Origin: an uncultured Clostridia bacterium | Lineage (GTDB): Bacteria > Bacillota > Clostridia > TANB77 > CAG-508 | Reading direction: 5' to 3' | Assembly: GCA_934184665.1 (NCBI GenBank) | Contig: CAKPSX010000005.1 | Location: 1-60,132 of the forward strand | DNA length: 60,132 bases | Shown here: in pieces, positions 27,099 to 42,291 of the stretch | Layout of the letters: the number at the start of each line of letters is the position of its first letter | Numbering within the stretch: the stretch's first letter is position 1 | Program-made: the position numbers and the translations under genes | The notes under the pieces: model-generated | Told to the model about the DNA's origin: nothing | What the model saw: only the letters and a program-made list of their open reading frames with translations | Database searches by the model: none

Positions 27099-29150
27099 AT
27101 GAACTATAAAGTAGAAGGTGCGATAAGAAGAAATAAAAAATATTTTATAATTTTTGCCATACTATGGCTATTTGCAGCCATAGTATTAATCATGCCTGCG
27201 GTACTTGGATTTAATGCTGGTATGAATGGACAAGATCCAATAGAAGTATTTGTAGGAGCAATGACAAATCCGATAAAAAGTCTAGGGCAGCTTGCAACAC
27301 AGCACTTATTTGCTCAGTATTTTAAAGCATTAGGTGGATTTACAATAATATTTGCATTATTTTTTGTAATAGGAATTGCAAGATCAGCACCTAAAAGCGA
27401 ATATACAGACTTTGAACATGGATCAAGTGATTGGAGCAAAAATGGAGAACAATATCAAGTATTAAGCAATAAAAAAGGAATAATATTAGCAGAAGACAAT
27501 TATTTACCTGTTGATAAAAGGGGTAATGTTAATGTATTAGTAGTCGGTGGTTCAGGTTCTGGTAAATCTGCATCATATTCAATACCAAATGCATACCAAA
27601 TGCTAGGGTCATACGTGTTTACAGACCCTAAAGGTGAACTTTATGACAAAACAGCAGGATTTTTAAAAGAAAATGGATATGACATAAAAGTATTAAATCT
27701 TGTAAAACCACAAAATAGTGATGGATATAATCCATTAATGCATATATCATCAGAAATAGATGTTGATGTTATTGCAAACACAATAGTAAAAGGTCAAAAA
27801 ACAGGAGATGGTGGGTCAGACCCATTCTGGGATGATTCAGCAGAAATGTTATTAAAAGCATTAATATATTATTTACTTGCAACAAGACCTGAAGAAGAAC
27901 AAAATTTAGCAAGTTGTGCTGAATTGGTTAGAGCAGCAAATTCGAATGGTGGAAGTAACTTACTTACTGAATTAATTAGTAAACTTCCTTATGACCACCC
28001 AGCAAGAATGAACTATAAATCAATTGAAATAGCACCAGAAAAAACATATAGTTCAATATTAAGTACATTACAATCAAAATTAGGAAAGTTCGACTCAAAG
28101 GAAATTGCAGAAGTAACATCAACAGATACAATAAATTTCGAAGATATTGGAAACAAGAAAACAGCGGTTTATGTTATATCTTCAGATACACATACAGCAT
28201 ATGATTTCTTATTAACAATATTTTTCTCACAAATGATACAACAATTATATAATTATGCAGATGATAATGGCGGAAAATTAAAAGTTCCAACATATTTTAT
28301 ATTAGACGAGTTCGCAAATATAGGTAAAGTGCCAGACTTTGATAAAAAAATATCAACATCAAGAAGTAGAAAAATATCATTTAGTGTAATATTACAAAAC
28401 TTAGACCAATTAGAGGCAGTATATGAAAAATCATATGAAACTATAATTGGTAACTGTGATACACACGTATTCTTGGGCAGTAACTCTTATAAAACTGTTG
28501 AATATTTCTCAAAAGCTCTTGGTGAAAAAACAATTGAAAGAGATAGTATATCAGTAAACAAAGATAGACAATATTTTAGAACTGGTATAAGTAAATCAGA
28601 CCAAGTTATGGCAAGAGCATTGATGACACCTGATGAATTAAGAAGAATGGATAATGATTTATGTATTATATTTGAAAAAGGTATAAGGCCTGTAAAAGCA
28701 AATAAATTCTATTATTTTAAACATAAAAAAATAGTAAATGCACTTGCTAAAACAGAAATGAGTCATAATGCTACAAGAGATTTAAAAAGAGGAGAATGGA
28801 GAAAATTCAATCCATATAATCCTTGGACAGAAGATAAATCAGAAAAAGAGGCACAAGACTTAAAGGTTGAATCTTTAGATGATTTATTTGAAGAAAAGCA
28901 AGATGAAAACACTGTAAAAGAAGTTAAAAAGGAAACAAAAAGGAAAACACCAGTAAAAAAAGAAGAACAAAAACAAGAAGAAATACAATCAATAGATAGT
29001 TTATTTGATGATGAATTAGAGTCAATTCCAACAGATTCAACAAATAATGTATCAAATGCAATTCAAGAGGAAGAAGAAGATTCTTATGATTTACAAAAAG
29101 AATTAGAGGCAAAGTTTGATGAATTATTTGGCCCAATTGATGATAATTAA
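27099..29150 (+). CDS. Type IV secretion coupling protein, VirD4/TraG family
   Basis: - Two N-terminal TM helices are present.
- Walker A is VVGGSGSGKSASYSIPN.
- The Walker B context is YFILDEFANIG.
- The C-terminal tail is acidic and Lys-rich. Confidence 0.8.
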   Translation: MNYKVEGAIRRNKKYFIIFAILWLFAAIVLIMPAVLGFNAGMNGQDPIEVFVGAMTNPIKSLGQLATQHLFAQYFKALGGFTIIFALFFVIGIARSAPKSEYTDFEHGSSDWSKNGEQYQVLSNKKGIILAEDNYLPVDKRGNVNVLVVGGSGSGKSASYSIPNAYQMLGSYVFTDPKGELYDKTAGFLKENGYDIKVLNLVKPQNSDGYNPLMHISSEIDVDVIANTIVKGQKTGDGGSDPFWDDSAEMLLKALIYYLLATRPEEEQNLASCAELVRAANSNGGSNLLTELISKLPYDHPARMNYKSIEIAPEKTYSSILSTLQSKLGKFDSKEIAEVTSTDTINFEDIGNKKTAVYVISSDTHTAYDFLLTIFFSQMIQQLYNYADDNGGKLKVPTYFILDEFANIGKVPDFDKKISTSRSRKISFSVILQNLDQLEAVYEKSYETIIGNCDTHVFLGSNSYKTVEYFSKALGEKTIERDSISVNKDRQYFRTGISKSDQVMARALMTPDELRRMDNDLCIIFEKGIRPVKANKFYYFKHKKIVNALAKTEMSHNATRDLKRGEWRKFNPYNPWTEDKSEKEAQDLKVESLDDLFEEKQDENTVKEVKKETKRKTPVKKEEQKQEEIQSIDSLFDDELESIPTDSTNNVSNAIQEEEEDSYDLQKELEAKFDELFGPIDDN

Positions 29151-29230: not shown

Positions 29231-29833
29231 TTATTTTTCACAATTTAAAAGTTCTCTTATTAAATCATATAAATATGGTTTAAATTCCTCAATTGGAAGA
29301 GGTTCTTTATATAAAATAGAATTAAAACACGTTGAACTTACTAGTTCTACAATCATATAAAGTGTAACACTTGGATTTTTCAATTTTATATTATTTTCTT
29401 TTACTCCATTTAAAAATAATGAAATCATACTTGTATTAGAAGTTTTATCAGTATCATATAATTTCAATACTGTTTGACTGTAAACACCCCAAGATAAATT
29501 CTTTGATATAAATTTTAATAATAATGGAGATTTCGCAAGTTCATCAATTATATAATTTATTACAAAGATTATTTGGTCAGCAAAATTTTTAATATAGCTA
29601 TTGTGCAAAGCATTTATTGCATCATTAAATAATGCCATTGACTTTTTTGCAATTAAAATATCTCTTAATTCATATTTATCTTTAAAATATAAATAAAAAG
29701 TACCTTTGGCGACATTTGCTTCATCAACAATATCTTGAATTGAAGTATCTTTAATTCCTTTTTCAATAAAAAGTTTAAAACCTGTATTTAGTAATCTGCT
29801 TTCTTTATCATTTTTGGATTCGTCATTTTTCAT
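29231..29833 (-). CDS. TetR/AcrR-family transcriptional regulator
   Basis: The N-terminal HTH region reads LLNTGFKLFIEKGIKDTSIQDIVDEANVAKGTFYLYFKDKYEL. It is divergent from the MMPL gene. Confidence 0.85.
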   Translation of the reverse strand: MKNDESKNDKESRLLNTGFKLFIEKGIKDTSIQDIVDEANVAKGTFYLYFKDKYELRDILIAKKSMALFNDAINALHNSYIKNFADQIIFVINYIIDELAKSPLLLKFISKNLSWGVYSQTVLKLYDTDKTSNTSMISLFLNGVKENNIKLKNPSVTLYMIVELVSSTCFNSILYKEPLPIEEFKPYLYDLIRELLNCEK

Positions 29834-29926
29834 ATTTAATCACATTCCTTCCTTGTTAAAAGCATAATCTGGTTGGAAAAGAATAAAATCGTATTTTTTT
29901 CAACTAATTATATTATTACACAAATT

Positions 29927-29939
29927 AGACGATTGGTCA
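29927..29939. promoter_or_regulatory. Candidate TetR operator copy 1 (aGAC-N5-GTCa)
   Basis: agacgattggtca lies in the divergent tetR/MMPL intergenic region and is related to the two TGAC-N5-GTCA sites downstream. Confidence 0.45.
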
Positions 29940-30045
29940 ATATCTTATTTAATAGAAAAATTAAAGATTTTATTATGATAGAAATGTCACAACTATTGAA
30001 ATCATGGAATTTTTATAAAAATTATCAAAAAATTGGCAAAAAGTA

Positions 30046-30074
30046 TTGACTAATGGTCATAATGGTAATATAAT
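30046..30074 (+). promoter_or_regulatory. Sigma-A-type promoter of the MMPL operon
   Basis: TTGACT (30046-30051), a 17-nt spacer, then TATAAT (30069-30074). The track's TTG start at 30046 is this -35 box. Confidence 0.7.
30047..30059. promoter_or_regulatory. Candidate TetR operator copy 2 (TGACtaatgGTCA), overlapping the -35 box
   Basis: Palindromic half-sites TGAC/GTCA separated by 5 nt. Confidence 0.55.
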
Positions 30075-30082
30075 AATAAAAG

Positions 30083-30095
30083 TGACTGATGGTCA
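30083..30095. promoter_or_regulatory. Candidate TetR operator copy 3 (TGACtgatgGTCA), just downstream of the -10 box
   Basis: A near-identical repeat of the 30047 site, 36 nt away and followed by the same ggtcata context. Confidence 0.55.
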
Positions 30096-30111
30096 TAAGG
30101 AAGGAGAATGT

Positions 30112-32184
30112 ATGAAAAAGTTTGGAGAATTAATATGTAAACATAAAAAAATAATATTAATAATAGCCTTAATATTAATAATACCATCAATAATCGGAAT
30201 GAAAGCAACAAGGATTAATTACGACATTTTAGTTTATTTACCAGATGACATAGAAACACTAAAAGGTCAAGAGATTTTAGCAAACGATTTTGACATGGGT
30301 GCATTTTCAGTAGTAGTACTTGACGGAATGGATACACAGGAAATGATAAAACTTGAAGATGAATTTAGAAACACTGAGAATGTTGAAAAAGTTATAGGGT
30401 TATCAGATGTTACAGGAACATCAATACCACTTGAAATGTTAACAGATGAAGTCAAAGACAAAATTTATAAAGATGGTGCAACACCAATATTAGTAACATT
30501 TAAAGATGGTATATCTGATGATACAACATTGAAAACAATAGAACATTTAAGAGAAATTACAGATGACAAATGTAAAATAAGTGGAATGTCAGCTGTAGTT
30601 ATAGATACAAGAGATTTAGCCAATTCTGAGATAATAGTATATGTAGCAATTGCAGTTGCATTATGTTTCTTAATTTTACAATTAGCTCTTGATTCATATT
30701 TAGCACCTGTATTACTACTTGCAAACATAGGAATAGCAATATTATATAATATGGGAACAAATATAGCACTTGGGCAAATATCTTATATAACAAAAGCAAT
30801 AAGTGCAGTATTGCAATTAGGTGTAACAATGGATTTTGCAATATTCTTATATCATAGTTACAAAGCAGAAAAAGAAAAAGCATCAAATAATGATGAGGCG
30901 ATGGCACAAGCAATATCAAAAACATTGGTATCAATAGTAGGTAGCTCAGCAACTACAATAGCAGGATTCTTAGCATTATGTAGTATGAACCTTACACTTG
31001 GAAAAGATATTGGATTAGTAATGGCAAAAGGTGTATTATTTGGAGTAATCAGTGTTGTAACAATATTACCAGCAATGCTATTAATATTTGATAAAGCAAT
31101 TGAAAAAACAAGCCACAAAGAAATATTACCAAAATTCACAAAATTGAAAGACTTTAACATAAAGCATTATAAAGCAATAATAGTAGCATTTATAGCAATA
31201 TTACCATTTGCAATATATGGATATACACATACAGAAACATATTATAATTTAACAAAATCTTTACCAACTAATTTACAGAGTATAGTTGCAAATACCGAAT
31301 TAGAAGATAAATTCAATATGGTATCAACAGAAGTATTATTAGTAAATAAAGATATTCCAGATTATAAATTAAATGAAATGCTAGATAAAATAGAAAGTCT
31401 TGATGGAATAGAATGGACATTAAGTTATTCAAGAATATCACAAGCAACAAATATTCCAAAGGAAATGTTATCAGATGATATAAAATCAGTATTTGAGAAA
31501 AATGATTATCAAATGATAATTGTAAATTCAACATATGAAGTTGCTACAGATGAATTAAATAATCAAATAGCAGAAGTAAATAATATAATAAAACAATATG
31601 ATGATACTGCAATACTTGCGGGAGAAGGACCTTTGATGAAAGATTTGGTTGAGATAAGTAACCACGACTTTAATAGTGTAAACTCAGTATCAATTGGAAT
31701 AATATTCATAATAATGATATTTGTTTTAAAATCAGCAAGTTTACCAATTATATTAATTGCAGTTATAGAATTTGCAATATTTATAAATATGGGAATACCA
31801 GCATATACGGGAACAGTGCTTCCATTTATAGCTTCAATAGTTATAGGAACAATACAACTAGGGGCTACAATAGATTATGCAATATTGATTACAACAAGAT
31901 ATAAAACATCAAGAATGGAAGGTCAAGACAAACATATGGCAATTGACAATGCATTAGGTGCATCAATACAATCAATAATTGTTAGTGGATTATGTTTTTT
32001 CGGAGCAACATTCGGAGTTGGAGCATATTCACAAATAGAGATGATAGGTTCATTATGTACATTAATGTCAAGAGGTGCAATAATAAGTATGGTTACTGTA
32101 TTAACAGTATTACCAGCATTCTTATTGGTATTTGATAAAGTGATTTGCAAAACAACAAGTGGAATGAAAAATATAAAAGCATAA
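30112..32184 (+). CDS. MMPL-family (RND-superfamily) membrane transporter, YdfJ-like
   Basis: Two blocks of about 6 TM helices are separated by soluble loops. ATG 30112 follows aaggaaggag. Confidence 0.85.
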   Translation: MKKFGELICKHKKIILIIALILIIPSIIGMKATRINYDILVYLPDDIETLKGQEILANDFDMGAFSVVVLDGMDTQEMIKLEDEFRNTENVEKVIGLSDVTGTSIPLEMLTDEVKDKIYKDGATPILVTFKDGISDDTTLKTIEHLREITDDKCKISGMSAVVIDTRDLANSEIIVYVAIAVALCFLILQLALDSYLAPVLLLANIGIAILYNMGTNIALGQISYITKAISAVLQLGVTMDFAIFLYHSYKAEKEKASNNDEAMAQAISKTLVSIVGSSATTIAGFLALCSMNLTLGKDIGLVMAKGVLFGVISVVTILPAMLLIFDKAIEKTSHKEILPKFTKLKDFNIKHYKAIIVAFIAILPFAIYGYTHTETYYNLTKSLPTNLQSIVANTELEDKFNMVSTEVLLVNKDIPDYKLNEMLDKIESLDGIEWTLSYSRISQATNIPKEMLSDDIKSVFEKNDYQMIIVNSTYEVATDELNNQIAEVNNIIKQYDDTAILAGEGPLMKDLVEISNHDFNSVNSVSIGIIFIIMIFVLKSASLPIILIAVIEFAIFINMGIPAYTGTVLPFIASIVIGTIQLGATIDYAILITTRYKTSRMEGQDKHMAIDNALGASIQSIIVSGLCFFGATFGVGAYSQIEMIGSLCTLMSRGAIISMVTVLTVLPAFLLVFDKVICKTTSGMKNIKA

Positions 32185-32205
32185 AAGATTGGAAAGGAGA
32201 TAAAA

Positions 32206-34104
32206 ATGATTAAAGAAAATTTAGGTAAAAGAATAATAAGTAGTGTATTATTATGTTCAATGATTGGCTACACAATGCCAGTATTTGCTTTAACAAAAGA
32301 AGAAACAGTATATTCTAAGCTTAACAATGAAGGTTCTTCATATAATACAATTGTAAGTACACATATAAAAAATGAAGAATTATTACAGATAATAAATGAT
32401 ATGTCAGATTTATTAAATATAAAAAATGTTGGTGGAGATGAAAGTTTCAAAGTTGATAATAATTCAGTAGTATGGAATGCAGGTGAAAAAGATATTTATT
32501 ATCAAGGTGAAGCTTCAAAAGAATTACCAGTTCAAACATCTATAAAATATGAATTAAATGGAGAAGAAATATCAGCAAAAGATATTGCTGGAAAAGATGG
32601 AAAGGTTAAAATTACTATAGAATATGAAAACAAAGACGCACACACAGTAAGTGTAAGAGGAAAAGACGAAACACTTTATACACCATTTATAGTAATTACA
32701 GGAACAGCTATTGATAATGAAAAAAATAAAAATATTGAAATTTCTAATGGTAAAGTGATTGAAAAAGATGGGGAAACTGTGGTTCTAGGAATTGCATTCC
32801 CTGGATTACAAGAAAGTTTAAATCTTGAAAAAGATACAGTAGATATTCCAAATTCAGTTGAAATTACAATGGATTCAACAGATTTTGAATTAGAAAATAT
32901 GCTTACTTATATAACACCAAGAGCCCTAGAAGATGATACAGATGATATTACTGATAAAATAAATGATTTATATAAATCAGTAGATGACATGAAAACAGCT
33001 AGTGAAAAAATCCAAGATGGTGCTAATACATTAAAAGATGGAACAGCAGAATATTCAGAAAAATCAGCAGAATTTAACGGATATATGGGTGAACTAGCAA
33101 AAGGAACACAAGAAGCAGAATCAGGTGCAAATGCTTTATCAAGTGGAATAAATCAATTATCATCAAAAACAGGTGCATTAGTACCAGGCGTAAATAAATT
33201 GGTAGAAGGTTCAGAATTATTAGATACAAAACTTAATGATGCTGTTACAGCAACAGGAAAAATATCAGCAGGAGCTCAAGATGTAAATAAAGGAATTCAA
33301 AATGTTTCAGCAGCAATTGATGGAATAAATACAAATTTACAAGCAACAGATACATCAAATTTAGAGGCTAAGGTAGCAAGTTTAACAAAAGCAAAAACAA
33401 ACTTAAGTAATTTAAACACTGCATTAGAAGCACAAATAGCAGCAAATAGTGAAAATCAAGAATTAGTTGCATTATTAAAACAACAAGTTGAGATGAATAA
33501 TGCATCAATACAAGCGTATGATAGTAATATTACTTCATTAAAATCTACAGCAACTCTTAAAGCAACAATAGCAGCAGTAAAAACTGGACTTGATGGAGAT
33601 GGAACAGAAAAAAATCCAGGTTTAAAAGCTGGAGCTAAAGGTCTTGCAAGTGGTACGGCAGAACTTGATACAGGATTACAATTAATGAGTACAAAAACAG
33701 GAGATTTAGTATCAGGTGTAAAAGAATTATCAACAAAATCAAAAACATTAATTGCAGGTGTTAATCAAATAAAAGCAGGTGCGAATTCATTAAATACAGG
33801 TGTTTCTCAAATAAATACAAGTACAAATACTTTAAGCTCTGCAAGTACACAATTGTCAGATAGTTCAAAAGCAATTGCAAATGGTATGGAAACATTATCA
33901 AGTGGAATAAATGAATTCAACAGCCAAGCAATTGATAAAGTATATAACTTTGTTGAAAATGATGTTAAAGATTTAACAGAAAGATTAGAACAGTTAAATG
34001 ATTTATCTAAAGAATATATTAATTTTGCTATGAAAGATGAGGCAATGAATGGGAATGTTAAATTTATAACAATTACTGATTCAATAAAAAAAGAGAATAA
34101 GTAA
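32206..34104 (+). CDS. Secreted YhgE/Pip-N-terminal-like protein with LxxG heptad (coiled) repeats
   Basis: A signal peptide is present. A long Ala/Thr/Asn-rich region carries recurring ...L..G heptads (GANALSSGINQLSSKTGALVPGVNKLVEGSELL...). It is a common partner of MMPL transporters in Firmicutes. No C-terminal TM segment is seen. Confidence 0.6.
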   Translation: MIKENLGKRIISSVLLCSMIGYTMPVFALTKEETVYSKLNNEGSSYNTIVSTHIKNEELLQIINDMSDLLNIKNVGGDESFKVDNNSVVWNAGEKDIYYQGEASKELPVQTSIKYELNGEEISAKDIAGKDGKVKITIEYENKDAHTVSVRGKDETLYTPFIVITGTAIDNEKNKNIEISNGKVIEKDGETVVLGIAFPGLQESLNLEKDTVDIPNSVEITMDSTDFELENMLTYITPRALEDDTDDITDKINDLYKSVDDMKTASEKIQDGANTLKDGTAEYSEKSAEFNGYMGELAKGTQEAESGANALSSGINQLSSKTGALVPGVNKLVEGSELLDTKLNDAVTATGKISAGAQDVNKGIQNVSAAIDGINTNLQATDTSNLEAKVASLTKAKTNLSNLNTALEAQIAANSENQELVALLKQQVEMNNASIQAYDSNITSLKSTATLKATIAAVKTGLDGDGTEKNPGLKAGAKGLASGTAELDTGLQLMSTKTGDLVSGVKELSTKSKTLIAGVNQIKAGANSLNTGVSQINTSTNTLSSASTQLSDSSKAIANGMETLSSGINEFNSQAIDKVYNFVENDVKDLTERLEQLNDLSKEYINFAMKDEAMNGNVKFITITDSIKKENK

Positions 34105-34110
34105 AATAGA

Positions 34111-34138
34111 AGGACAATACAAGCGAGTATTGTCCTTT
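34111..34138 (+). terminator. Intrinsic terminator of the MMPL/YhgE-like operon
   Basis: aggacaatac (34111-34120) pairs with gtattgtcct (34127-34136). The loop is 6 nt and a short T tract follows. Confidence 0.65.
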
Positions 34139-34200
34139 AGTAATATATTAAATAAATCAGTAAATAGAAAAACTAACTATCACTGTAGTTTTACATAAAA

Positions 34201-34229
34201 TTGACATCGAAATAAAATCATGGTATAAT
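34201..34229 (+). promoter_or_regulatory. Near-consensus sigma-A-type promoter with extended -10, dedicated to the foreign CDS
   Basis: TTGACA (34201-34206), a 17-nt spacer, then TGgTATAAT (34221-34229). GGAGG at 34251-34255 lies 10 nt before ATG 34266. Confidence 0.7.
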
Positions 34230-34265
34230 TAAGGTACATCTTTATTATTTGGAGGGTTATATACC

Positions 34266-35237
34266 ATGACTACTAACAACAAGCTGAACAACGTCACCGT
34301 TATCACCTCTGGTTCTCTGGCTAAGTCCGGAGGCATCCAGACCGTGACCCGGACGCTCTTTGAGAGCGTGATGCCCATCCTCTACCTCGACAAGGAGGGC
34401 GAGGATAACGTTAAGATCAAGCTCAAGGATAGCAACAGCATCCTGTTCTCTGGGTTCGACGATCAGTTCGTCAATCTGGCCAATTGGGCCAAAGAAGAAG
34501 GCAAGAAGGTCGCAGTGTTCTGGCACTTTGCTTGTGCTAGTGAGGTCGATCCTGACCTGGGAGCTGCTTGGCGGTCGCTGTTACCTCTGCTCTGTGGAGG
34601 TAAAATCGATCTATTTGTAACTTGCAAGTACGGACAGCCGGAAATCGTTGAGAAACTGTTCGGAGTCAAGACTTTCTTGATTTTGAACAATTCCTTGGAG
34701 AATTCCTATAAGGATGAACCCAAGAACGGAATCGGAATCTTTTCTGGTTCTAGTGATTACTGGGTCAAGAATTTACGACCCAACCTGTATGCTTCTCTAA
34801 TGACAGAGAAGCAAGTGGATATTGTTCCTTATGAGGACAGTATCCGTAACATGGTTAAGACCATGGGCGTGGAAGACAGGGTAACTGGTGAATCTCGACT
34901 GGAACATTCGCTGTTCTTGAAGAGAATGGCCAGCTGTGAACTGGTTACTTACGTAACCTTCGCAGAAGGGGCACCAATTCTCCCCTTGGAGGCACTTAAC
35001 AATGGTGTTATCTGCCTGACTGGAGACAACCACAACTACTTCACAGATGATCAGCGTCTGCGGGACTTTCTGGTCTGCACCAGACCTGACGACCCCTATG
35101 CAATCTACAGGGCTATTGAGATAGCTCTGGAGAACAAGGACGAGATTCTGCATCGTTACTACCGCTGGAAGATGCGGTATGATGAGGAGCAGAAGCAGAA
35201 CTTCAACCTCTTTATTGAGGCGTTGAAGAATATGTAA
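34266..35237 (+). CDS. Compositionally foreign CDS (323 aa): compact GT-B fold, GT4-like glycosyltransferase candidate
   Basis: - It is a clean ORF with its own SD.
- The C-terminal half aligns by eye to the GT4 pattern: IGIFSGSSDYWVKN (G..S....KN/G), then ...VTYVTFAEGAPILPLEALNNGVICLTGDN with E234-x7-E242 (EX7E, nt 34965-34991).
- The N-terminal TVITSGSL..SGGIQT resembles the GT4 glycine-rich loop.
- Its G+C and codon choice are unlike every other gene in the window. Confidence 0.7.
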   Translation: MTTNNKLNNVTVITSGSLAKSGGIQTVTRTLFESVMPILYLDKEGEDNVKIKLKDSNSILFSGFDDQFVNLANWAKEEGKKVAVFWHFACASEVDPDLGAAWRSLLPLLCGGKIDLFVTCKYGQPEIVEKLFGVKTFLILNNSLENSYKDEPKNGIGIFSGSSDYWVKNLRPNLYASLMTEKQVDIVPYEDSIRNMVKTMGVEDRVTGESRLEHSLFLKRMASCELVTYVTFAEGAPILPLEALNNGVICLTGDNHNYFTDDQRLRDFLVCTRPDDPYAIYRAIEIALENKDEILHRYYRWKMRYDEEQKQNFNLFIEALKNM

Positions 35238-35242
35238 CCCTA

Positions 35243-35273
35243 AGAGAGAGGCTATTGCCTCTCTCTTTTTTTT
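35243..35273 (+). terminator. Textbook intrinsic terminator of the foreign CDS
   Basis: agagagaggc (35243-35252), loop tatt, gcctctctct (35257-35266), giving a perfect 10-bp stem. The T run extends to 35273 and begins 5 nt after the stop codon. Confidence 0.85.
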
Positions 35274-35405: not shown

Positions 35406-36470
35406 ATGAGGTTTGTACATATAGCAGATATGCACTTTGATTCACCATTTACAACATTATCAGATAAAGGAAATTTAGGCGAGATAAGAAGAATGGAACA
35501 AAGAAAAATATTTAAAAAAGTAATTGATTATATAAAAGAAAATAAAATAGAATTATTATTTATTTCAGGAGACTTATATGAACATCAATATATAAGAAAA
35601 TCTACAATAGAATATATAAATAATTTATTTAAAGAAATAAATAAAACAAAAATATTTATATCTCCAGGAAATCATGATCCATATTTAAAAAAATCATATT
35701 ATAATGATTTTTCATGGAATGAAAATGTACACATTTTTAATTCTCAAATTGAAAAAATTGAATTAAACAATTTAGATATATATGGATATGGCTTTGATGA
35801 TTTTTATTGCTCAGAATCGAATTTAGAGAGCCTTAAAATTGCTAATCCTGAAAAAACAAATATATTAATAATACATGGTACACTTGATGGTTCAACAGCA
35901 GAGGAAAGACAGTATAATCCTATGAGCAAAAGAATGCTGATAGAAAAAGGCTTTGACTATGTAGCTTTAGGGCATATACATAAAACTAATTTTACTCCAG
36001 AGGAAAGAATTATTTATCCAGGCTCAACAATTTCATTAGGTTTTGATGAGCTCGGAAAACATGGAATGGTAGTAGGAGATATTGAAAAAAATAAAATAGA
36101 ATTTATTGAATTAGATGAAACAGAGTTTGTAGAAAAAGAAATAAAATGTACAGAAATATTTTCAATTGAACAATTAATTGAAAAAATAAATGAAATAAAT
36201 ATAGAAAAAAATAAATTATATAAAATAATATTAACAGAAAAAAGAAATTTTGAAATAAATATATATGATATTTATAAATATGAATTAAATGAGAGAATAA
36301 TTAAAATAAAAAATAAAACAAAACCCAATTATGATATAGAAAAAATTTCAAAAGAAAAAACATTAAAAGGTTTATTTGTTAAAGAAATGATGGAAGAAAT
36401 AAAAAAGGAAATTTATGATGATGAAATTTTAGAAAATGCATTAGAAATTGGAATAGAAATATTAGAATAA
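35406..36470 (+). CDS. Metallophosphoesterase DNA-repair exonuclease (SbcD/YhaO-like)
   Basis: Contains MRFVHIADMHFDSPF, GDLYEH, GNHD, and GHIH calcineurin-like motifs. Confidence 0.8.
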   Translation: MRFVHIADMHFDSPFTTLSDKGNLGEIRRMEQRKIFKKVIDYIKENKIELLFISGDLYEHQYIRKSTIEYINNLFKEINKTKIFISPGNHDPYLKKSYYNDFSWNENVHIFNSQIEKIELNNLDIYGYGFDDFYCSESNLESLKIANPEKTNILIIHGTLDGSTAEERQYNPMSKRMLIEKGFDYVALGHIHKTNFTPEERIIYPGSTISLGFDELGKHGMVVGDIEKNKIEFIELDETEFVEKEIKCTEIFSIEQLIEKINEINIEKNKLYKIILTEKRNFEINIYDIYKYELNERIIKIKNKTKPNYDIEKISKEKTLKGLFVKEMMEEIKKEIYDDEILENALEIGIEILE

Positions 36471-38551
36471 TGGAGGGATTTATTTTGAAAATAAATGAAA
36501 TAAAAATAAATTCATATGGAAAATTAAAAAATAAAAAAATAAATTTAAATAAAAATATTAATATAATATATGGAGAAAATGAAAGTGGAAAATCAACATT
36601 ATTAAAATTTATTTTAAATATTTTTTATGGAACATCAAAAAATAAAAAAGGAAAAGAAATATCTGATTTTGAAAAATATAAGCCATGGAATTCAGAAGAA
36701 TTTTCTGGAAAATTATCATACGAATTAGATAATAAAAATAAATATGAAATATTTAGAGAATTTAATAAAAAAAATCCAATAATATTTAATGAAAAAGGAG
36801 AAGAAATTACAAAAGAATTTAATATAGATAAAAATAAAGGTAGTGAATTTTTTTACGAACAAACACAAATAAATGAGGAAATGTTTCTTGCAACATCAGT
36901 TTCATTACAACAAGAAGTAAAAATTAGCAAAAATGAGCAAAGTATGTTAGTACAAAAAATATCTAACTTGCTAGGGACAGGGGAAGATAAAATTTCATAT
37001 AAAAAAGCAATTGAAAAAATAAATAAAAAACAATTGGAAGAAGTTGGAACTGAAAGAAGTAGAGAAAAACCTATAAATATTCTTGAAAAAAATATAAAAG
37101 AAAATGAGGAAAAAATAAACCAATTAAAAAAATACCAAAATATTCAATATGAAATTGAAGAAGAAAAAAAAGAAATAAAAAATAAAATTAAAATAGAAAA
37201 AATAAAAAATAATTTATTAAAAGAAATAAAAAAAATAAAAGAAAAAAATAATTTGGAAAATGAAAAAATAAAAATAAAAGAAAATATAATAAAAGAAAAT
37301 AAAAATAAAATTCAAGAAATAAAAAATAAAATAGAAAAAAATGAAATAAAAATCGAACAAGAAAATAATAATAAAAAATATGAAGAAGAAAAAAATAAAA
37401 TAAAAAATAAAAACAAAAAAAATAAAATAATTTTTATTTTTTTAATAATTATTTCTTTGCTTTGGATAATATTTTCTCAAAAAATAATTAAAAATATATT
37501 TGCTAATTATTTAATATTAATTATTTTACCGATTTGTTTTATTGCTTGGAAAATAAGCAAAAATAAAAATAATAAAAAAATAAATAAAATAGAAAAAAAT
37601 AAAAATAATATTATAAAAGAATTAAATGAAGAAAAAAATACATTAATAAATGAAATAAAAATAATAGAAAAAAATTCCAATGATTTATTAAATGAAATAA
37701 ATAAAATAAAAAAAGAAAACGAAAATATAAAAATATTAGAAAAACAAAAAATAATAAATAATTATTTTTATGACATGAAAAAAATAGAATTAAATTCTAA
37801 TCAAAAAAACAATAATAATTATTTATTTAACTCTGAAAATAATAATTTAATATTTAATTTCGAAAATTCAGAAAATAATTTAAAAAATATAGAAAATAAA
37901 ATTAATTTATTATTAAATTCGGAAAAAATAGAAAACGAATTAAATTCTTCAGAAAATATAATAAATAATTTAAAAATGGAAATAAATAAAATAGAATTAA
38001 AAAAAGAAAATATTGAACCATTACTTGATGAATTATCAAATATTGAAGAAAAATTATATTCACAAAAAGAAGAATATAAAAATTTACAAAAAATTAATAC
38101 TAGTATAGAATTAGCAAAAAAAATATTAGAAAGAGCATATGAAAAAATGAAAGATAGTGTTAGTCCGATATTCACAAATAAATTATCAGAAAATATATCT
38201 GAAATAACAAATAAAAAATATACTAATATTTATTTTGGAGATGAACAGGGATTAACAGTTGAACTTGAAAATGGAAATTATGTTCCAGTAGAAAGATTAA
38301 GCATTGGAACAATTGACCAATTATATTTATCACTTAGGCTAGCAATGTTAGATGAGATTTCAAAGGAAAAAGTACCTATTATTTTAGATGAGGCATTTGC
38401 TTATTATGACAATGAAAGATTAGAAAATATATTAAAATATTTATATACGAAATTTAGTGATAGACAACTTATAATATTAAGTTGTACAAAAAGAGAAAAA
38501 GAAATCCTAGAAAAACAAAATATAGAATTTAATTTTGTAGAGTTAAATTAA
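36470..38551 (+). CDS. AAA/SMC-like ATPase partner of the exonuclease (SbcC/YhaN-like) with central TM hairpin
   Basis: - Walker A is YGENESGKSTLLKFI.
- A very long K/N/I/E coiled-coil region is interrupted by two hydrophobic helices (IIFIFLIIISLLWIIF, ILIILPICFIAW).
- The C-terminus has LSIGTIDQLYLSLRLA and IILDEAF (signature and Walker B).
- The real start is probably TTG 36485 (MKINEIKINSYGKL), 8 nt after GGAGG at 36472-36476. Confidence 0.75.
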   Translation: MEGFILKINEIKINSYGKLKNKKINLNKNINIIYGENESGKSTLLKFILNIFYGTSKNKKGKEISDFEKYKPWNSEEFSGKLSYELDNKNKYEIFREFNKKNPIIFNEKGEEITKEFNIDKNKGSEFFYEQTQINEEMFLATSVSLQQEVKISKNEQSMLVQKISNLLGTGEDKISYKKAIEKINKKQLEEVGTERSREKPINILEKNIKENEEKINQLKKYQNIQYEIEEEKKEIKNKIKIEKIKNNLLKEIKKIKEKNNLENEKIKIKENIIKENKNKIQEIKNKIEKNEIKIEQENNNKKYEEEKNKIKNKNKKNKIIFIFLIIISLLWIIFSQKIIKNIFANYLILIILPICFIAWKISKNKNNKKINKIEKNKNNIIKELNEEKNTLINEIKIIEKNSNDLLNEINKIKKENENIKILEKQKIINNYFYDMKKIELNSNQKNNNNYLFNSENNNLIFNFENSENNLKNIENKINLLLNSEKIENELNSSENIINNLKMEINKIELKKENIEPLLDELSNIEEKLYSQKEEYKNLQKINTSIELAKKILERAYEKMKDSVSPIFTNKLSENISEITNKKYTNIYFGDEQGLTVELENGNYVPVERLSIGTIDQLYLSLRLAMLDEISKEKVPIILDEAFAYYDNERLENILKYLYTKFSDRQLIILSCTKREKEILEKQNIEFNFVELN

Positions 38552-38602: not shown

Positions 38603-38696
38603 AATTATTTGAATCCAAAAAACTTAAAAAAAATATTTAAAAATATGGATATATATGTTATAATTGTATTTGATTAGTATTTGGAGGGAAATTATA

Positions 38697-39059
38697 ATGA
38701 ATAAGATGCCTAAAAAAACCAAGAATATCATTAAGGAGTTCGTAAAGCAAATAAATAATTTACTAGGGGATAGAATAAAAAAAGTTATTTTATATGGTTC
38801 TTATGCAAGAGGAGATTATAAGGATAATTCTGACATTGATATTATGATACTTACGGATTTAACAGATGAAGAAATAATTGAGTATAGAGAACAAGTGTCC
38901 AATATTGCATTTGATATAGAATTTGAAAATGATTTTGACATAACTATATCACCATTGATAAAAAATATAAATAAATTTGAATTTTGGAAAAATGTGTTAC
39001 CATTTTATATGAATATTCAAAAAGAGGGAGTGATTTTAAGTGAATCAAAAACTATCTAA
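38697..39059 (+). CDS. Minimal nucleotidyltransferase (MNT) antitoxin of a HEPN/MNT module
   Basis: Contains the LYGSYARGDYKDNSDIDIMILTD (GS..RG......SDxD) Pol-beta-type NTase motif. ATG 38697 follows ttggaggg. Confidence 0.85.
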   Translation: MNKMPKKTKNIIKEFVKQINNLLGDRIKKVILYGSYARGDYKDNSDIDIMILTDLTDEEIIEYREQVSNIAFDIEFENDFDITISPLIKNINKFEFWKNVLPFYMNIQKEGVILSESKTI

Positions 39060-39435
39060 AGATTTAGCAATACATAGACTTGAACAAGCAAGAGAAGATT
39101 TAGAAGCAGGTAAATTATTGTATGATAAAAATTTTTATAAATCTGCAAACAATAGAGCATATTATTCAATATTTCACAGTATAAAATCTATCCTTGCATT
39201 AGAGAGAATTGATTTTAAAAAGCATAAAGATGTGCTAGCATATTTTAATAAAAACTATATTAATAATGAAATTTTTCCTAAAACAATGGGTAGGAAAATC
39301 CATAGTGCGAGTTCTATGAGAGAAGATAGTGATTATGATGATGAGTTTATAGTGGATGCTAGTAAAACTAAGGAACAATTAAATACAGCAGAAGAGCTTA
39401 TTGATTTAGTTGAAAAATATATAGAAAATAATTAA
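39040..39435 (+). CDS. HEPN-domain protein (putative toxin of the HEPN/MNT module)
   Basis: It is helical and contains RAYYSIFH (R-x6-H). The GTG start overlaps the MNT gene by 20 nt, the typical bicistronic arrangement. Confidence 0.75.
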
Positions 39436-41826: not shown

Positions 41827-42291
41827 ATGAAGAAGAAGAAATTCATGATGATGGTGATGGCAGCGATTATGCTGCTGAGTGTTGCTTGTACAGCAAGTGC
41901 AAGCTGCCAGGTACAGAAGCCAATTAAGGTATACTATAATGGCATAGCAATTAACTTCCCAGATCAACAACCTATGATTGTCAGTGGTAGGACTATGGTT
42001 CCTGTTCGTGCAATCGCTGAAGCTCTTGATTATGATGTTCTATGGATTGCAAAGGACAACGAAGTGCAGCTTTATCAGCACTTAGGAGAAGGGTTTGTTT
42101 TTTGGAAGATAGGTGAAAACACTTATCGGACTAATCACGATAGTATAGTTGATGCAGGATGTGCACCAATTGTCCTGAATGGGCGTACCATGGTGCCCAT
42201 CAGATTCGTGGCGGAACAGCTCTCCAGCTTAAATGTAGAGTTTGTACAACAAAAATATCAAGATTTCGTCTTCTTAAACGAGAAGGATTAA
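41827..42291 (+). CDS. Secreted protein with two copper-amine-oxidase N-terminal-like (stalk) repeats
   Basis: A signal peptide is present (MKKKKFMMMVMAAIMLLSVACTASA). There are two copies of the ...P.IV.GRTMVP.R..AE.L... motif. G+C is elevated (25/60 in each of the first two 60-nt blocks by hand count). Confidence 0.75.
   Translation: MKKKKFMMMVMAAIMLLSVACTASASCQVQKPIKVYYNGIAINFPDQQPMIVSGRTMVPVRAIAEALDYDVLWIAKDNEVQLYQHLGEGFVFWKIGENTYRTNHDSIVDAGCAPIVLNGRTMVPIRFVAEQLSSLNVEFVQQKYQDFVFLNEKD

What the first reader, a model, noticed from the sequence alone, without database searches (positions are those of the whole stretch)
34266..35237. The foreign product looks like a compact orphan GT-B (GT4-like, EX7E) glycosyltransferase with no pathway partners
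By eye, the 323-aa protein follows the retaining GT4 architecture.
- **N-terminus:** a glycine-rich loop (VTVITSGSLAKSGGIQT).
- **Start of the C-domain:** IGIFSGSSDYWVKN, matching the G.......K(G/N) pattern.
- **Donor-binding block:** LVTYVTFAEGAPILPLEALNNGVICLTGDN, with E234-x7-E242 (nt 34965-34991), the EX7E signature.
- **Size:** at 323 aa it is short for the family, and the N-domain appears trimmed.

Nothing adjacent supplies an acceptor pathway: there is no flippase, polymerase, sugar-nucleotide synthesis or polyprenyl-P transferase gene. The substrate is therefore open. It could be an envelope lipid or polymer, a protein, or a nucleic acid, as with phage GT-B DNA glucosyltransferases. 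All of these are inference. A stand-alone, horizontally delivered GT under a strong promoter is the kind of single-gene module that can alter surface or phage-receptor chemistry, or act in phage-host conflict.
Basis: partly seen in the sequence, partly recalled or inferred. Interest (0 to 1): 0.8.

Follow-up and report, generated by a model that had tools for sequence, protein, structure and literature searches.

The report
Orphan compact glycosyltransferase gene cassette
A GC-rich gene sitting alone in a very AT-rich gut Clostridia chromosome encodes a small, previously unannotated sugar-transferring enzyme; it is a real enzyme of a familiar fold, its target is unknown, and it occurs as a self-contained promoter-gene-terminator unit at different chromosomal sites in different bacteria.

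Summary
ORF 34266-35237 (+) encodes a 323-aa protein with a 12/12 consensus extended -10 promoter and an 11-bp hairpin terminator. Its GC is 48% (GC3 0.61), against a host mean GC3 of 0.15.

- **Fold:** the AlphaFold model (pLDDT 92) is a two-Rossmann GT-B fold. The best PDB matches are GT4 enzymes (BshA, SenB, GtfA, MshA; TM 0.65-0.73).
- **Conserved residues:** E234 and E242 (EX7E), K168, H87 and G23 are invariant in 27 homologues. dN/dS is 0.05-0.15.
- **Sequence annotation:** it is dark. Pfam Glycos_transf_1 scores below threshold, NCBIfam has no hit and no source names any homologue.
- **Close homologues (40-100% identity):** all come from uncultured gut bacteria, mostly 26-33% GC Clostridia. 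Each is monocistronic with its own promoter and terminator, at six or more unrelated chromosomal sites, never in a glycan locus.
- **Distant homologues:** they sit in Wzm/Wzt polysaccharide loci, often fused to a methyltransferase plus coiled coil or to a GT32-like domain.
- **Best reading:** a cytoplasmic NDP-sugar transferase that decorates an envelope glycopolymer made elsewhere. The acceptor is inferred, not shown.
- **Not supported:** no phage, plasmid or defence link was found.
- **Unexplained:** the gene stays GC-rich in AT-rich hosts, and its alleles are exchanged independently of the chromosome around them.

The parts
34110..34137 (+). Hairpin terminator of the upstream gene (the protein with YhgE/Pip-type repeats). 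It marks the left limit of the intergenic space that holds the cassette.
   Evidence: (11-bp stem). L017 has an equivalent hairpin at the same place.
34184..34198 (+). Upstream motif TGTAGTTTTACATAA. Its TGTAGTTT core is shared by cassettes at three different chromosomal sites. W and L015 stop aligning just upstream of it.
   Evidence: The function was not tested. It may be only a second, weaker -35/-10 pair (TTTACA-17-TAAAAT).
34201..34229 (+). Sigma-70-type promoter TTGACA-17-TATAAT with a TG extension.
   Evidence: 12 of 12 matches. A TGnTATAAT box 30-36 nt before the ATG is present in all 13 loci compared.
34230..34265 (+). Short 5' leader with RBS GGAGGG (34251-34256). The start of the leader, TAAGGTACAT, resembles the leaders of L001, L019, L022 and L025.
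   Evidence: No Rfam family matches.
34266..35237 (+). CDS of a 323-aa soluble GT-B glycosyltransferase (pI 5.2, no transmembrane segment).
34323..34337 (+). K20-S-G-G23-I24, the glycine loop after beta-1 of the N-domain (K20 nearly invariant; G23 and I24 invariant).
34521..34550 (+). W86-H87-F88...E93-V94-D95, the family-specific N-domain block. H87 is conserved even in distant fused relatives.
34743..34772 (+). S160-G161-S162-S-D-Y165-W166-V-K168-N169, the first loop of the C-domain. K168 is the predicted phosphate-binding lysine. Ser162 stands where GT4 enzymes have Arg.
   Evidence: (invariant residues). The SenB K158 analogy is from PMC10891094.
34965..34991 (+). E234-x7-E242, the EX7E donor-binding block. 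P237 and P240 are also invariant.
35242..35273 (+). Intrinsic terminator (11-bp stem, loop TATT, T-run). This is the right end of the cassette. Homology between W and L007 ends here.
   Evidence: Homologous hairpins GAG(A/G)GGC-(T/A)ATT-GCC(T/C)CTC occur in the L001, L008, L015, L017 and L019 cassettes.

Best explanation
The gene is a functional, constitutively promoted, monocistronic cassette encoding a soluble cytoplasmic GT-B (GT4-like) glycosyltransferase.

**Proposed mechanism**
- The C-domain binds a nucleotide-sugar through K168, E234 and E242.
- The compact N-domain (KSGG loop and the WHF..EVD block) binds the acceptor in the cleft between the two domains.
- One sugar is transferred.

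**Most likely acceptor.** A cell-envelope glycopolymer or its lipid-linked precursor, made by genes elsewhere in the genome (secondary cell-wall polymer, teichoic-acid-like polymer or surface-layer glycan). That would make this a single-gene 'decorating' enzyme that changes surface chemistry.

**What is shown and what is inferred**
- Shown: the ORF and its signals, the fold, the invariant catalytic-type residues, purifying selection, the stand-alone cassette organisation, and the foreign composition.
- Inferred: the donor, the stereochemistry, and above all the acceptor class.

My confidence is about 0.85 that it is an active NDP-sugar transferase and about 0.4 that the acceptor is an envelope glycopolymer.
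For: **Enzyme class**
- The fold model is confident (pLDDT 91.9, pTM 0.87).
- Foldseek gives probability 1.0 to BshA, SenB, GtfA, MshA, GlgM and WaaG.
- Pfam Glycos_transf_1 matches residues 188-293, and 16 of 27 family members match it at E < 0.01.
- E234, E242, K168, H87, G23 and R220 are invariant.
- dN/dS is 0.04-0.16 in eleven of the twelve pairs with a finite estimate (0.32 for the near-identical L008/L020 pair).
- All 15 alleles in the >=93% identity cluster are intact, with catalytic residues unchanged.
- The protein is soluble, with pI 5.2 and no transmembrane segment.

**Expression**
- Consensus promoter and terminator.
- The same promoter architecture in all 13 loci compared.

**Acceptor class, from true sequence homologues (profile E 1e-30 to 1e-48)**
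- The Paenibacillus protein P0192 lies between wzm-wzt plus a GT2 and two large GT4 genes, with a Wzy_C ligase and rml genes nearby.
- P0189 is a methyltransferase plus coiled coil plus this module, directly after wzm and a wzt carrying the Wzt_C cap-binding domain.
- P0184 (Saccharibacteria) is a GT32-like domain plus this module, near LytR-CpsA-Psr, GT4, GT2 and wzm/wzt genes.

**Host.** It is a spore-former with SLH-anchored surface proteins, so a secondary cell-wall polymer is expected.
Against: - No acceptor pathway gene is linked to any of the compact homologues.
- The glycan-locus relatives are only 23-36% identical, and GT4-type enzymes change acceptors at that distance.
- The best structural matches are mostly small-molecule enzymes (BshA, SenB, GlgM, sucrose-P and trehalose-P synthases).
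- The protein is acidic, with no obvious membrane-binding surface, unlike many lipid-linked-glycan transferases.
- Promoter strength is judged from consensus only.
Confidence: 0.4

Rival explanations
1. It is a small-molecule glycosyltransferase. On this reading it makes a soluble glycoside, such as a thiol-cofactor precursor, a compatible solute or a sugar-phosphate, in the manner of BshA, MshA, SenB or GlgM.
For: - The top Foldseek hits are BshA (TM 0.73), SenB (TM 0.71/0.72, also about 320 aa), GlgM, sucrose-P synthase and trehalose-P synthase.
- The N-domain is compact.
- The protein is acidic and soluble.
- A stand-alone gene fits a one-step reaction on a common metabolite.
Against: - E-values differ by only one or two orders of magnitude across many GT-B enzymes of every acceptor type, so the ranking does not discriminate.
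- There is no sequence-level similarity to any of these enzymes.
- Partner genes (bshB/C, senA/C) are not nearby.
- The true sequence homologues lie in polymer loci.
Confidence: 0.2
2. It is a protein O-glycosyltransferase. Possible substrates are a surface, spore or S-layer/SLH protein, or a cytoplasmic protein, as with GtfA or SdgB.
For: - GtfA and SdgB are among the top structural matches (ranks 6, 18, 35 and 49).
- The host encodes large SLH/repeat surface proteins and sporulation genes.
- One synteny group places the gene between sigE and sigG, and others place it next to ribosomal protein genes.
Against: - It lacks the DUF1975-type insertion of GtfA/SdgB and has no GtfB-like partner.
- No substrate gene recurs next to it across the six site contexts.
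- The neighbourhoods look like random intergenic sites.
Confidence: 0.15
3. It acts in phage-host conflict or on nucleic acid. It would be a DNA or nucleotide glycosyltransferase, or part of a defence system, as the first reader suggested as one option.
For: - Composition is foreign, alleles are mosaic and are exchanged independently of the backbone.
- Two site contexts are next to DNA-repair genes: sbcCD in the window, and nth/dinB/ruvAB in L001.
- A predicted phage DNA alpha-glucosyltransferase appears at rank 19 in the viral fold search.
Against: - No PADLOC hit and no meaningful PHROG hit.
- No homologue in IMG/VR, INPHARED phages or PLSDB plasmids.
- No match to the Pfam GT4-conflict family.
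- No partner genes.
- The other four site contexts have no link to DNA metabolism.
Confidence: 0.05
4. It is an artefact: an assembly chimera, a contaminant, or a decaying remnant with no function.
For: The jump from 27% to 48% GC coincides exactly with the gene. One related contig (L021) does look chimeric.
Against: - Junctions are identical in five independent contigs of up to 64 kb from different samples.
- Syntenic orthologues exist at 86% and 70% identity.
- Purifying selection is strong.
- Alleles are intact.
- The promoter and terminator are host-like.
Confidence: 0.02

Closest known systems
BshA / MshA (CAZy GT4; bacillithiol and mycothiol first-step GlcNAc transferases)
   Same: - Best structural matches (5d00_B, TM 0.73).
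- Two-Rossmann GT-B fold with a C-terminal helix crossing back.
- EX7E-type glutamates and a phosphate-binding lysine in the C-domain.
- Soluble cytoplasmic enzymes.
   Different: - No detectable sequence similarity.
- About 40-60 residues shorter.
- Ser162 replaces the GR arginine.
- A family-specific WHF..EVD block.
- No bshB/bshC or mshB-D partner nearby.
SenB (Se-glycosyltransferase of selenoneine biosynthesis; PMC10891094)
   Same: - Same size (about 320 aa) and compact GT-B fold, TM 0.71/0.72 (8jjt_B).
- A lysine (K158) binding phosphate and a glutamate (E239) binding ribose, at positions comparable to K168 and E242.
- A His/Asp pair in the N-domain.
   Different: - 14% identity.
- SenB is always in a senABC cluster, whereas this gene has no partners.
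- The hosts here are anaerobic gut Clostridia.
TarM-type stand-alone wall-teichoic-acid glycosyltransferases (GT4, Staphylococcus aureus). This comparison is from my own knowledge.
   Same: It is the working model for the mechanism proposed here. A single GT4-like gene outside the polymer gene cluster adds one sugar to a finished polymer backbone in the cytoplasm and so changes phage receptors.
   Different: - TarM is about 490 aa with a trimerisation insertion, which is absent here.
- No sequence relationship was shown.
- The polymer substrate in this host is unknown.
Multidomain glycan-chain enzymes of ABC-transporter (Wzm/Wzt) pathways. These have methyltransferase + coiled coil + GT architectures comparable to WbdD/WsaE-type terminators (the architecture comparison is from my own knowledge).
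   Same: These are true sequence homologues of the whole module (profile E 1e-30 to 1e-48; 23-36% identity). H87, K168, E234, P237, P240 and E242 are conserved. They lie in wzm-wzt loci.
   Different: - The window protein is the bare module, without the methyltransferase, coiled coil or GT32-like domain.
- It is not in a glycan locus.
- There is a score gap between the compact clade (>275 bits) and the fused ones (<180 bits).
Phage T4 alpha- and beta-glucosyltransferases (GT72, GT63)
   Same: GT-B fold, stand-alone gene, similar length (BGT is 351 aa).
   Different: - No sequence similarity.
- Not among the best fold matches.
- No hydroxymethylcytosine pathway.
- No homologue in any phage collection.

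Membership tests
GT-B fold glycosyltransferase superfamily | Two Rossmann-like beta/alpha/beta domains facing a cleft, with a C-terminal helix returning to the N-domain | tested here: met
   AF2 model with pLDDT 91.9. Strands 10-138 form the N-domain and 156-253 the C-domain, with a helix at 291-322. There are 381 PDB matches at E <= 0.001, and the 50 best listed are all GT-B enzymes.
GT-B fold glycosyltransferase superfamily | Nucleotide-sugar binding residues in the C-domain (phosphate-binding Lys/Arg, ribose- or sugar-binding Glu) | tested here: met
   K168, R220, E234 and E242 are invariant in 27 sequences. K168, E234 and E242 are at least 90% conserved in distant relatives. Actual ligand binding was not tested.
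CAZy GT4 / Pfam Glycos_transf_1 (PF00534) | Significant match to the family profile (gathering score 26.4 bits) | tested here: not met
   The window protein scores 21 bits, E 2.6e-4. Of 27 homologues, 16 match at E < 0.01 and only a few carry a precomputed PF00534 hit. hhalign against a canonical GT4 protein aligns only the EX7E block, E 0.25.
CAZy GT4 / Pfam Glycos_transf_1 (PF00534) | EX7E motif in the C-domain | tested here: met
   E234-x7-E242 is invariant and lies inside the Pfam-aligned stretch 188-293.
CAZy GT4 / Pfam Glycos_transf_1 (PF00534) | N-terminal Glyco_transf_4-type domain (PF13439/PF13579) and the G-R-x4-K-G phosphate loop | tested here: not met
   No N-domain Pfam hit even at E <= 10. 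The loop reads S-G-S-S-D-Y-W-V-K-N, with invariant Ser162 where Arg is expected.
CAZy GT4 / Pfam Glycos_transf_1 (PF00534) | Retaining stereochemistry | not testable with these tools
   This needs product analysis. The invariant His87 with Asp95/Asp115 would also suit an inverting His-Asp mechanism.
BshA/MshA/SenB-type small-molecule GT-B enzymes | Clustered or co-occurring pathway partners (bshB/bshC, mshB-D, senA/senC) | tested here: not met
   None occurs within 8 kb in the window or at the five other site contexts. Genome-wide co-occurrence could not be tested.
Anti-phage defence glycosyltransferases (PADLOC models; Pfam GT4-conflict PF20706) | Match to a defence-system model, or linkage to defence partners | tested here: not met
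   PADLOC gives no families. PF20706 is not matched. The MNT/HEPN pair 3.4 kb downstream is separated from the gene by sbcCD and is absent from the other site contexts.
Phage DNA glucosyltransferases (GT63/GT72) | Sequence or best-fold similarity to T4 AGT/BGT, and a phage context | tested here: not met
Glycan-chain enzymes of Wzm/Wzt (ABC-transporter-dependent) pathways | Location in a locus with wzm, wzt and other chain-building transferases | tested here: not met
   This is met for distant homologues but for none of the compact close homologues. It is therefore a 'works like' lead, not membership.

The most novel reading that the evidence does not exclude
The unit is more than a displaced enzyme gene. 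It would be a self-contained promoter-leader-GT-terminator cassette with no recombinase of its own.

- It has entered at least six unrelated intergenic sites in AT-rich gut Clostridia and in a 42-45% GC lineage, once between rplK and rplA.
- Its alleles are swapped independently of the surrounding chromosome.
- Its GC-rich, non-host codon usage is actively maintained, by selection or by recombination-driven GC bias, rather than being a fading trace of transfer.

It would then be a new kind of single-gene mobile surface-remodelling module.
Probability: 0.15. Interest if true: 0.7.

Novelty: new variant of a known kind. Interest (0 to 1): 0.45.

Why it matters
- **A missed family.** If the enzyme decorates a wall polymer, a single horizontally exchanged gene could switch surface glycan chemistry in abundant but uncultured human-gut Clostridia. 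That would also change phage and immune recognition. Current annotation misses it completely: there is no Pfam, NCBIfam or source name. The family defines a minimal GT-B module (about 320 aa, Ser in place of the usual Arg, and a WHF..EVD block). The same module is the catalytic end of unannotated multidomain enzymes in Wzm/Wzt glycan loci of Paenibacillus and Saccharibacteria. Characterising one member would therefore annotate several hundred proteins.
- **A test case for genome evolution.** The gene keeps GC3 at 0.3-0.6 in genomes with GC3 of 0.11-0.27 (0.15 on average in this window). This gives a clean case for deciding between amelioration, selection and biased gene conversion.

Tried and rejected
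**Searches that found nothing**
- Sequence searches of the PDB with the protein and with the family profile gave only chance hits.
- NCBIfam, PADLOC and PHROGs gave nothing useful.
- Protein searches of IMG/VR, INPHARED phages and PLSDB plasmids found no homologue, so no vector was identified.
- Rfam matched nothing in the leader or gene.

**Ideas tested and dropped**
- I first suspected a laboratory construct: perfect promoter, clean terminator, GC confined to the CDS. I rejected this because polymorphic natural strains and diverged syntenic orthologues carry the gene.
- A sporulation-promoter reading of the upstream CATAnnnT motif was dropped as too low in information.
- A second cassette partner was looked for. 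The GC-rich 142-aa ORF next to the gene in L002/L011/L012 is confined to that synteny group, and the 130-aa ORF in L004 has host composition.
- A link to TetR plus a membrane protein with YhgE/Pip-type repeats (seen in both the window and L008) rests only on weak similarity in the repeat region.

**Tests that stayed inconclusive**
- Polarised substitution counts for amelioration came out balanced (GC>AT 56, AT>GC 56), but the outgroup is saturated.
- A two-state decay estimate of my own was built from the flank dS values. It predicts more amelioration than is observed, but the model is crude.

**Limits reached**
- Host taxonomy could not be fixed beyond 'uncultured Clostridia-type spore-former', because names are masked.
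Full report
**1. What is at the coordinates**

E234 and E242 correspond to nt 34965-34991.

The gene is a sharp compositional island:
- GC is 0.47-0.49 across the gene, against 0.21-0.31 on both sides.
- GC3 is 0.61, against a mean of 0.15 (sd 0.056) for 43 other ORFs in the window (z about 8).
- Codon choice is foreign: CTG is 49% of Leu versus 1% in the host, AAG 87% of Lys versus 13%, and CGG 29% of Arg versus 0%.

The gene has its own signals:
- A 12/12 consensus TTGACA-17-TATAAT promoter with a TG extension (34201-34229).
- A GGAGGG ribosome-binding site.
- An 11-bp hairpin terminator with a T-run (35242-35273).
- The upstream gene ends in its own hairpin at 34110-34137.

No Rfam family matches the leader or the gene.

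**2. It is real, not an artefact or a construct**

- The same arrangement, base for base, occurs in five metagenome contigs of up to 64 kb from different human-gut samples, including Hadza.
- A related strain (L007) differs at 33 positions in the 1.25 kb upstream but at only one position in the gene.
- Two further contigs carry orthologues at 86% (L015) and 70% (L017) protein identity. They lie at the same site, between the gene for the protein with YhgE/Pip-type repeats and sbcD.
- The host is a spore-forming, SLH-protein-bearing, roughly 27% GC Firmicute. The window also holds YpeB, SpoIIE, MreB, PBP2, MurA and DnaX.

**3. What the protein is**

Sequence annotation is almost blank:
- Pfam gives only a sub-threshold Glycos_transf_1 match over residues 188-293 (21 bits against a cut-off of 26.4).
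- NCBIfam gives nothing.
- The PDB gives nothing by sequence or by profile.

A search of 5.8 billion proteins found 28 relatives at 40-100% identity. All are 288-332 aa apart from one 217-aa fragment, all are metagenomic, and none is named by any source. NCBI calls more distant relatives 'hypothetical protein'.

The alignment shows these invariant residues: G23, I24, S62-G63, W86-H87, D95, G155, G157, G161-S162, Y165-W166, K168-N169, R220, E234, P237, P240 and E242.

The AlphaFold2 model is confident (pLDDT 91.9, pTM 0.87):
- It shows two Rossmann-like domains and a long C-terminal helix.
- Foldseek against the PDB returns 381 matches at E <= 0.001.
- The top matches are the GT4 enzymes BshA (TM 0.73), SenB (0.71/0.72, also about 320 aa), GtfA, GlgM and MshA, followed by WaaG, SdgB and trehalose-P synthases.
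- The viral library returns generic 'glycosyl transferase family 1' proteins.

Further properties:
- The protein is acidic (pI 5.2) and has no hydrophobic segment.
- dN/dS is 0.04-0.16 in eleven of the twelve pairs with a finite estimate; the near-identical L008/L020 pair gives 0.32.
- All 15 alleles read from the >=93% identity cluster are intact, with the catalytic-type residues unchanged.

So it is a functional GT-B sugar transferase of GT4-like type.

Formal GT4 membership is not established:
- The family profile is not reached.
- No Glyco_transf_4 N-domain is detected.
- The canonical Arg of the phosphate loop is Ser162.
- A profile comparison with a bona fide GT4 protein aligns only the EX7E block.
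- Retaining versus inverting chemistry is open. An invariant His with nearby Asp residues is the hallmark of inverting GT-B enzymes as described in the SenB paper (PMC10891094).

**4. Neighbourhoods of homologues**

Close homologues are always alone, never in a glycan locus. Their hosts are low-GC bacteria labelled 'uncultured Clostridia' or 'uncultured Clostridium sp.'. The sites are unrelated:

| Loci | Site |
|---|---|
| Window, L015, L017 | Between the YhgE/Pip-repeat protein gene and sbcD |
| L001, L009, L018, L019 | Between rpmB and dinB |
| L002, L003, L011, L012 | Between a beta-propeller gene and a CNNM gene |
| L004-6, L010 | Between sigG and sigE, on the opposite strand |
| L008, L020 | Beside TetR and a YhgE/Pip-family transporter |
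| L022, L025 (42-45% GC host) | Between rplK and rplA |

All 13 loci compared share the same architecture:
- A TGnTATAAT box 30-36 nt upstream of the ATG.
- A short leader, similar at its start in several groups.
- GGAGG as the ribosome-binding site.
- A hairpin terminator straight after the stop codon. Its stem and loop are recognisably homologous between three site groups.

The transferable unit is therefore promoter + leader + gene + terminator.

No homologue is found in IMG/VR, in GenBank phages or in PLSDB plasmids. PADLOC finds nothing.

**5. Distant homologues give the only functional lead**

An exhaustive profile search finds 631 cluster representatives. Nine are compact ones (>275 bits). 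After a gap come many proteins of 400-900 aa in which this module, from about residue 19 to the end, forms the C-terminus. Their N-termini are a SAM methyltransferase followed by a coiled coil, or a GT32-like DXD domain. H87, K168, E234, P237, P240 and E242 are conserved in an alignment that includes other distant relatives (23-38% identical to the window protein).

Three of these relatives were examined in context:

| Protein | Architecture | Neighbourhood |
|---|---|---|
| P0192 (Paenibacillus glucanolyticus) | This module with an N-terminal extension (414 aa) | wzm, wzt, a GT2, two large GT4 genes, a Wzy_C ligase, rml genes |
| P0189 | Methyltransferase + coiled coil + this module | Directly after wzm and a wzt carrying the Wzt_C cap-binding domain |
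| P0184 (Saccharibacteria) | GT32-like domain + this module | LytR-CpsA-Psr, GT4, GT2, DUF2142, wzm/wzt |

By homology the module works on undecaprenyl-linked or wall-linked glycan chains. From my own knowledge, these architectures recall the WbdD/WsaE-type chain-modifying enzymes.

I therefore rank the acceptor as follows:
- An envelope glycopolymer, the TarM-like model of a single decorating gene outside the polymer cluster: about 0.4.
- A small molecule: 0.2.
- A protein: 0.15.
- Nucleic acid or a conflict role: 0.05.

None of these is shown.

**6. Evolutionary behaviour: the unexplained part**

In low-GC hosts the gene is nearly always GC-richer than its surroundings. Gene GC is 0.30-0.48 against flank GC of 0.22-0.33, and GC3 is 0.21-0.61.

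Divergence of the gene is decoupled from the backbone:

| Pair | Flank | Gene |
|---|---|---|
| W vs L007 | 2.6% diverged | 0.1% diverged |
| W vs L015 | 550 nt downstream 98.7% identical | 83.5% identical (dS 0.84) |

- The break on the right falls at the terminator, and alignment on the left is lost just upstream of the TGTAGTTTT motif.
- Alleles within the >=93% cluster are mosaics. A few positions (51, 125, 296, 303) carry three to five different residues.

In three other synteny-group comparisons with long flanks:
- The gene's dS is 1.5-3 times that of its neighbours.
- Its dN is 1.1-9 times higher (typically 2-5 times).
- Host GC3 is 0.11-0.27, while gene GC3 is 0.29-0.53.

My own two-state calculation gives a mixed result:
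- A faster synonymous rate is what a GC-rich sequence decaying under AT-biased mutation should show.
- The same model predicts that the GC excess should have largely vanished over the flank divergence seen (pairwise dS about 0.6-1.0). It has not.
- Polarised substitutions in W and L015 are balanced (56 GC>AT, 56 AT>GC), although the outgroup is saturated.

Two explanations remain:
- Alleles are repeatedly replaced from an unseen GC-richer reservoir, by recombination within the conserved cassette.
- GC-rich codons are actively maintained.

I could not decide between them.

**7. Verdict**

- The speculative extensions (phage conflict, DNA modification) find no support.
- The enzyme class is ordinary. 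The subfamily is unannotated and somewhat atypical, and the cassette-like spread and persistent GC-richness are curious. I classify it as a new variant of a known kind, of moderate interest.

Noticed in passing
window 41827-42291 (+): A second compositional outlier. It is a 154-aa secreted protein with a Cu_amine_oxidN1 domain, GC 41.5% and GC3 0.42, against a host GC3 of 0.15. It has its own terminator hairpin. Its flanks are not similar to the GT cassette.
   Followed up: partly
window 27099-29150 (+): A lone TraG/VirD4-type type IV coupling protein (T4SS-DNA_transf, E 3e-86) lies 5 kb upstream of the GT. No other conjugation genes were seen nearby. It may be a remnant of an integrative element.
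   Followed up: no
window 36470-38551 (+): The SbcC-like ATPase gene downstream of sbcD contains a stretch of only 10-12% GC, encoding an Asn/Lys/Ile-rich coiled coil. In L013 the equivalent region is called as two ORFs (70 and 535 aa).
   Followed up: no
window 38664-39435 (+): An overlapping nucleotidyltransferase (MNT) / HEPN gene pair, a toxin-antitoxin-type module, sits between the sbcC-like gene and prfA.
   Followed up: no
L022 2567-2606 and 3707-3746; ORF 3799-4098: In the 42% GC host, a 40-nt copy of the cassette promoter (93% identical) is repeated directly after the GT. It drives a 99-aa membrane ORF that also reuses the RBS and the first codons (MND...). This looks like a duplication of the cassette's 5' end.
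   Followed up: partly
L025 7515-8513 (and L022): Here the GT cassette is inserted inside the otherwise universally conserved secE-nusG-rplK-rplA cluster, between rplK and rplA, with its own promoter and terminator.
   Followed up: partly
L007 2258-2302: In this strain the sequence straight after the GT terminator is unrelated to the window's sbcD promoter region. It contains another TGTAGTTTT and an inverted ATTGACAT, and the contig ends there. There may be a second insertion or a tandem cassette.
   Followed up: partly
L002 11060-11488 (-), L011, L012: In this synteny group a convergent 142-aa ORF of unknown function lies next to the GT. It is also GC-rich (GC3 0.44-0.45) and fast-evolving (52% identity where flanking genes are 82-94% identical). 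It is absent from the other site groups.
   Followed up: partly
window 29231-34104 and L008 6849-9651: Both the window and its closest outgroup allele (L008, 61% identity) have the GT next to a TetR regulator and a membrane protein with YhgE/Pip-type LxxG heptad repeats. In the window there is also an MMPL transporter, giving a FarR/FarE-like module. Similarity is confined to the repeat region (23% identity), so this may be coincidence.
   Followed up: partly
L021 1-5919: An AT-rich GT allele is truncated at its 3' end and joined to 45% GC rhamnose/fucose utilisation genes at 2.2x coverage. This is probably a chimeric contig and was left out of the conclusions.
   Followed up: yes
window 2700-6575 (+): A 1291-aa surface protein with SLH domains and Listeria-Bacteroides repeats. 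It implies an SLH-anchoring secondary cell-wall polymer in this host, which is one candidate acceptor for the GT.
   Followed up: no
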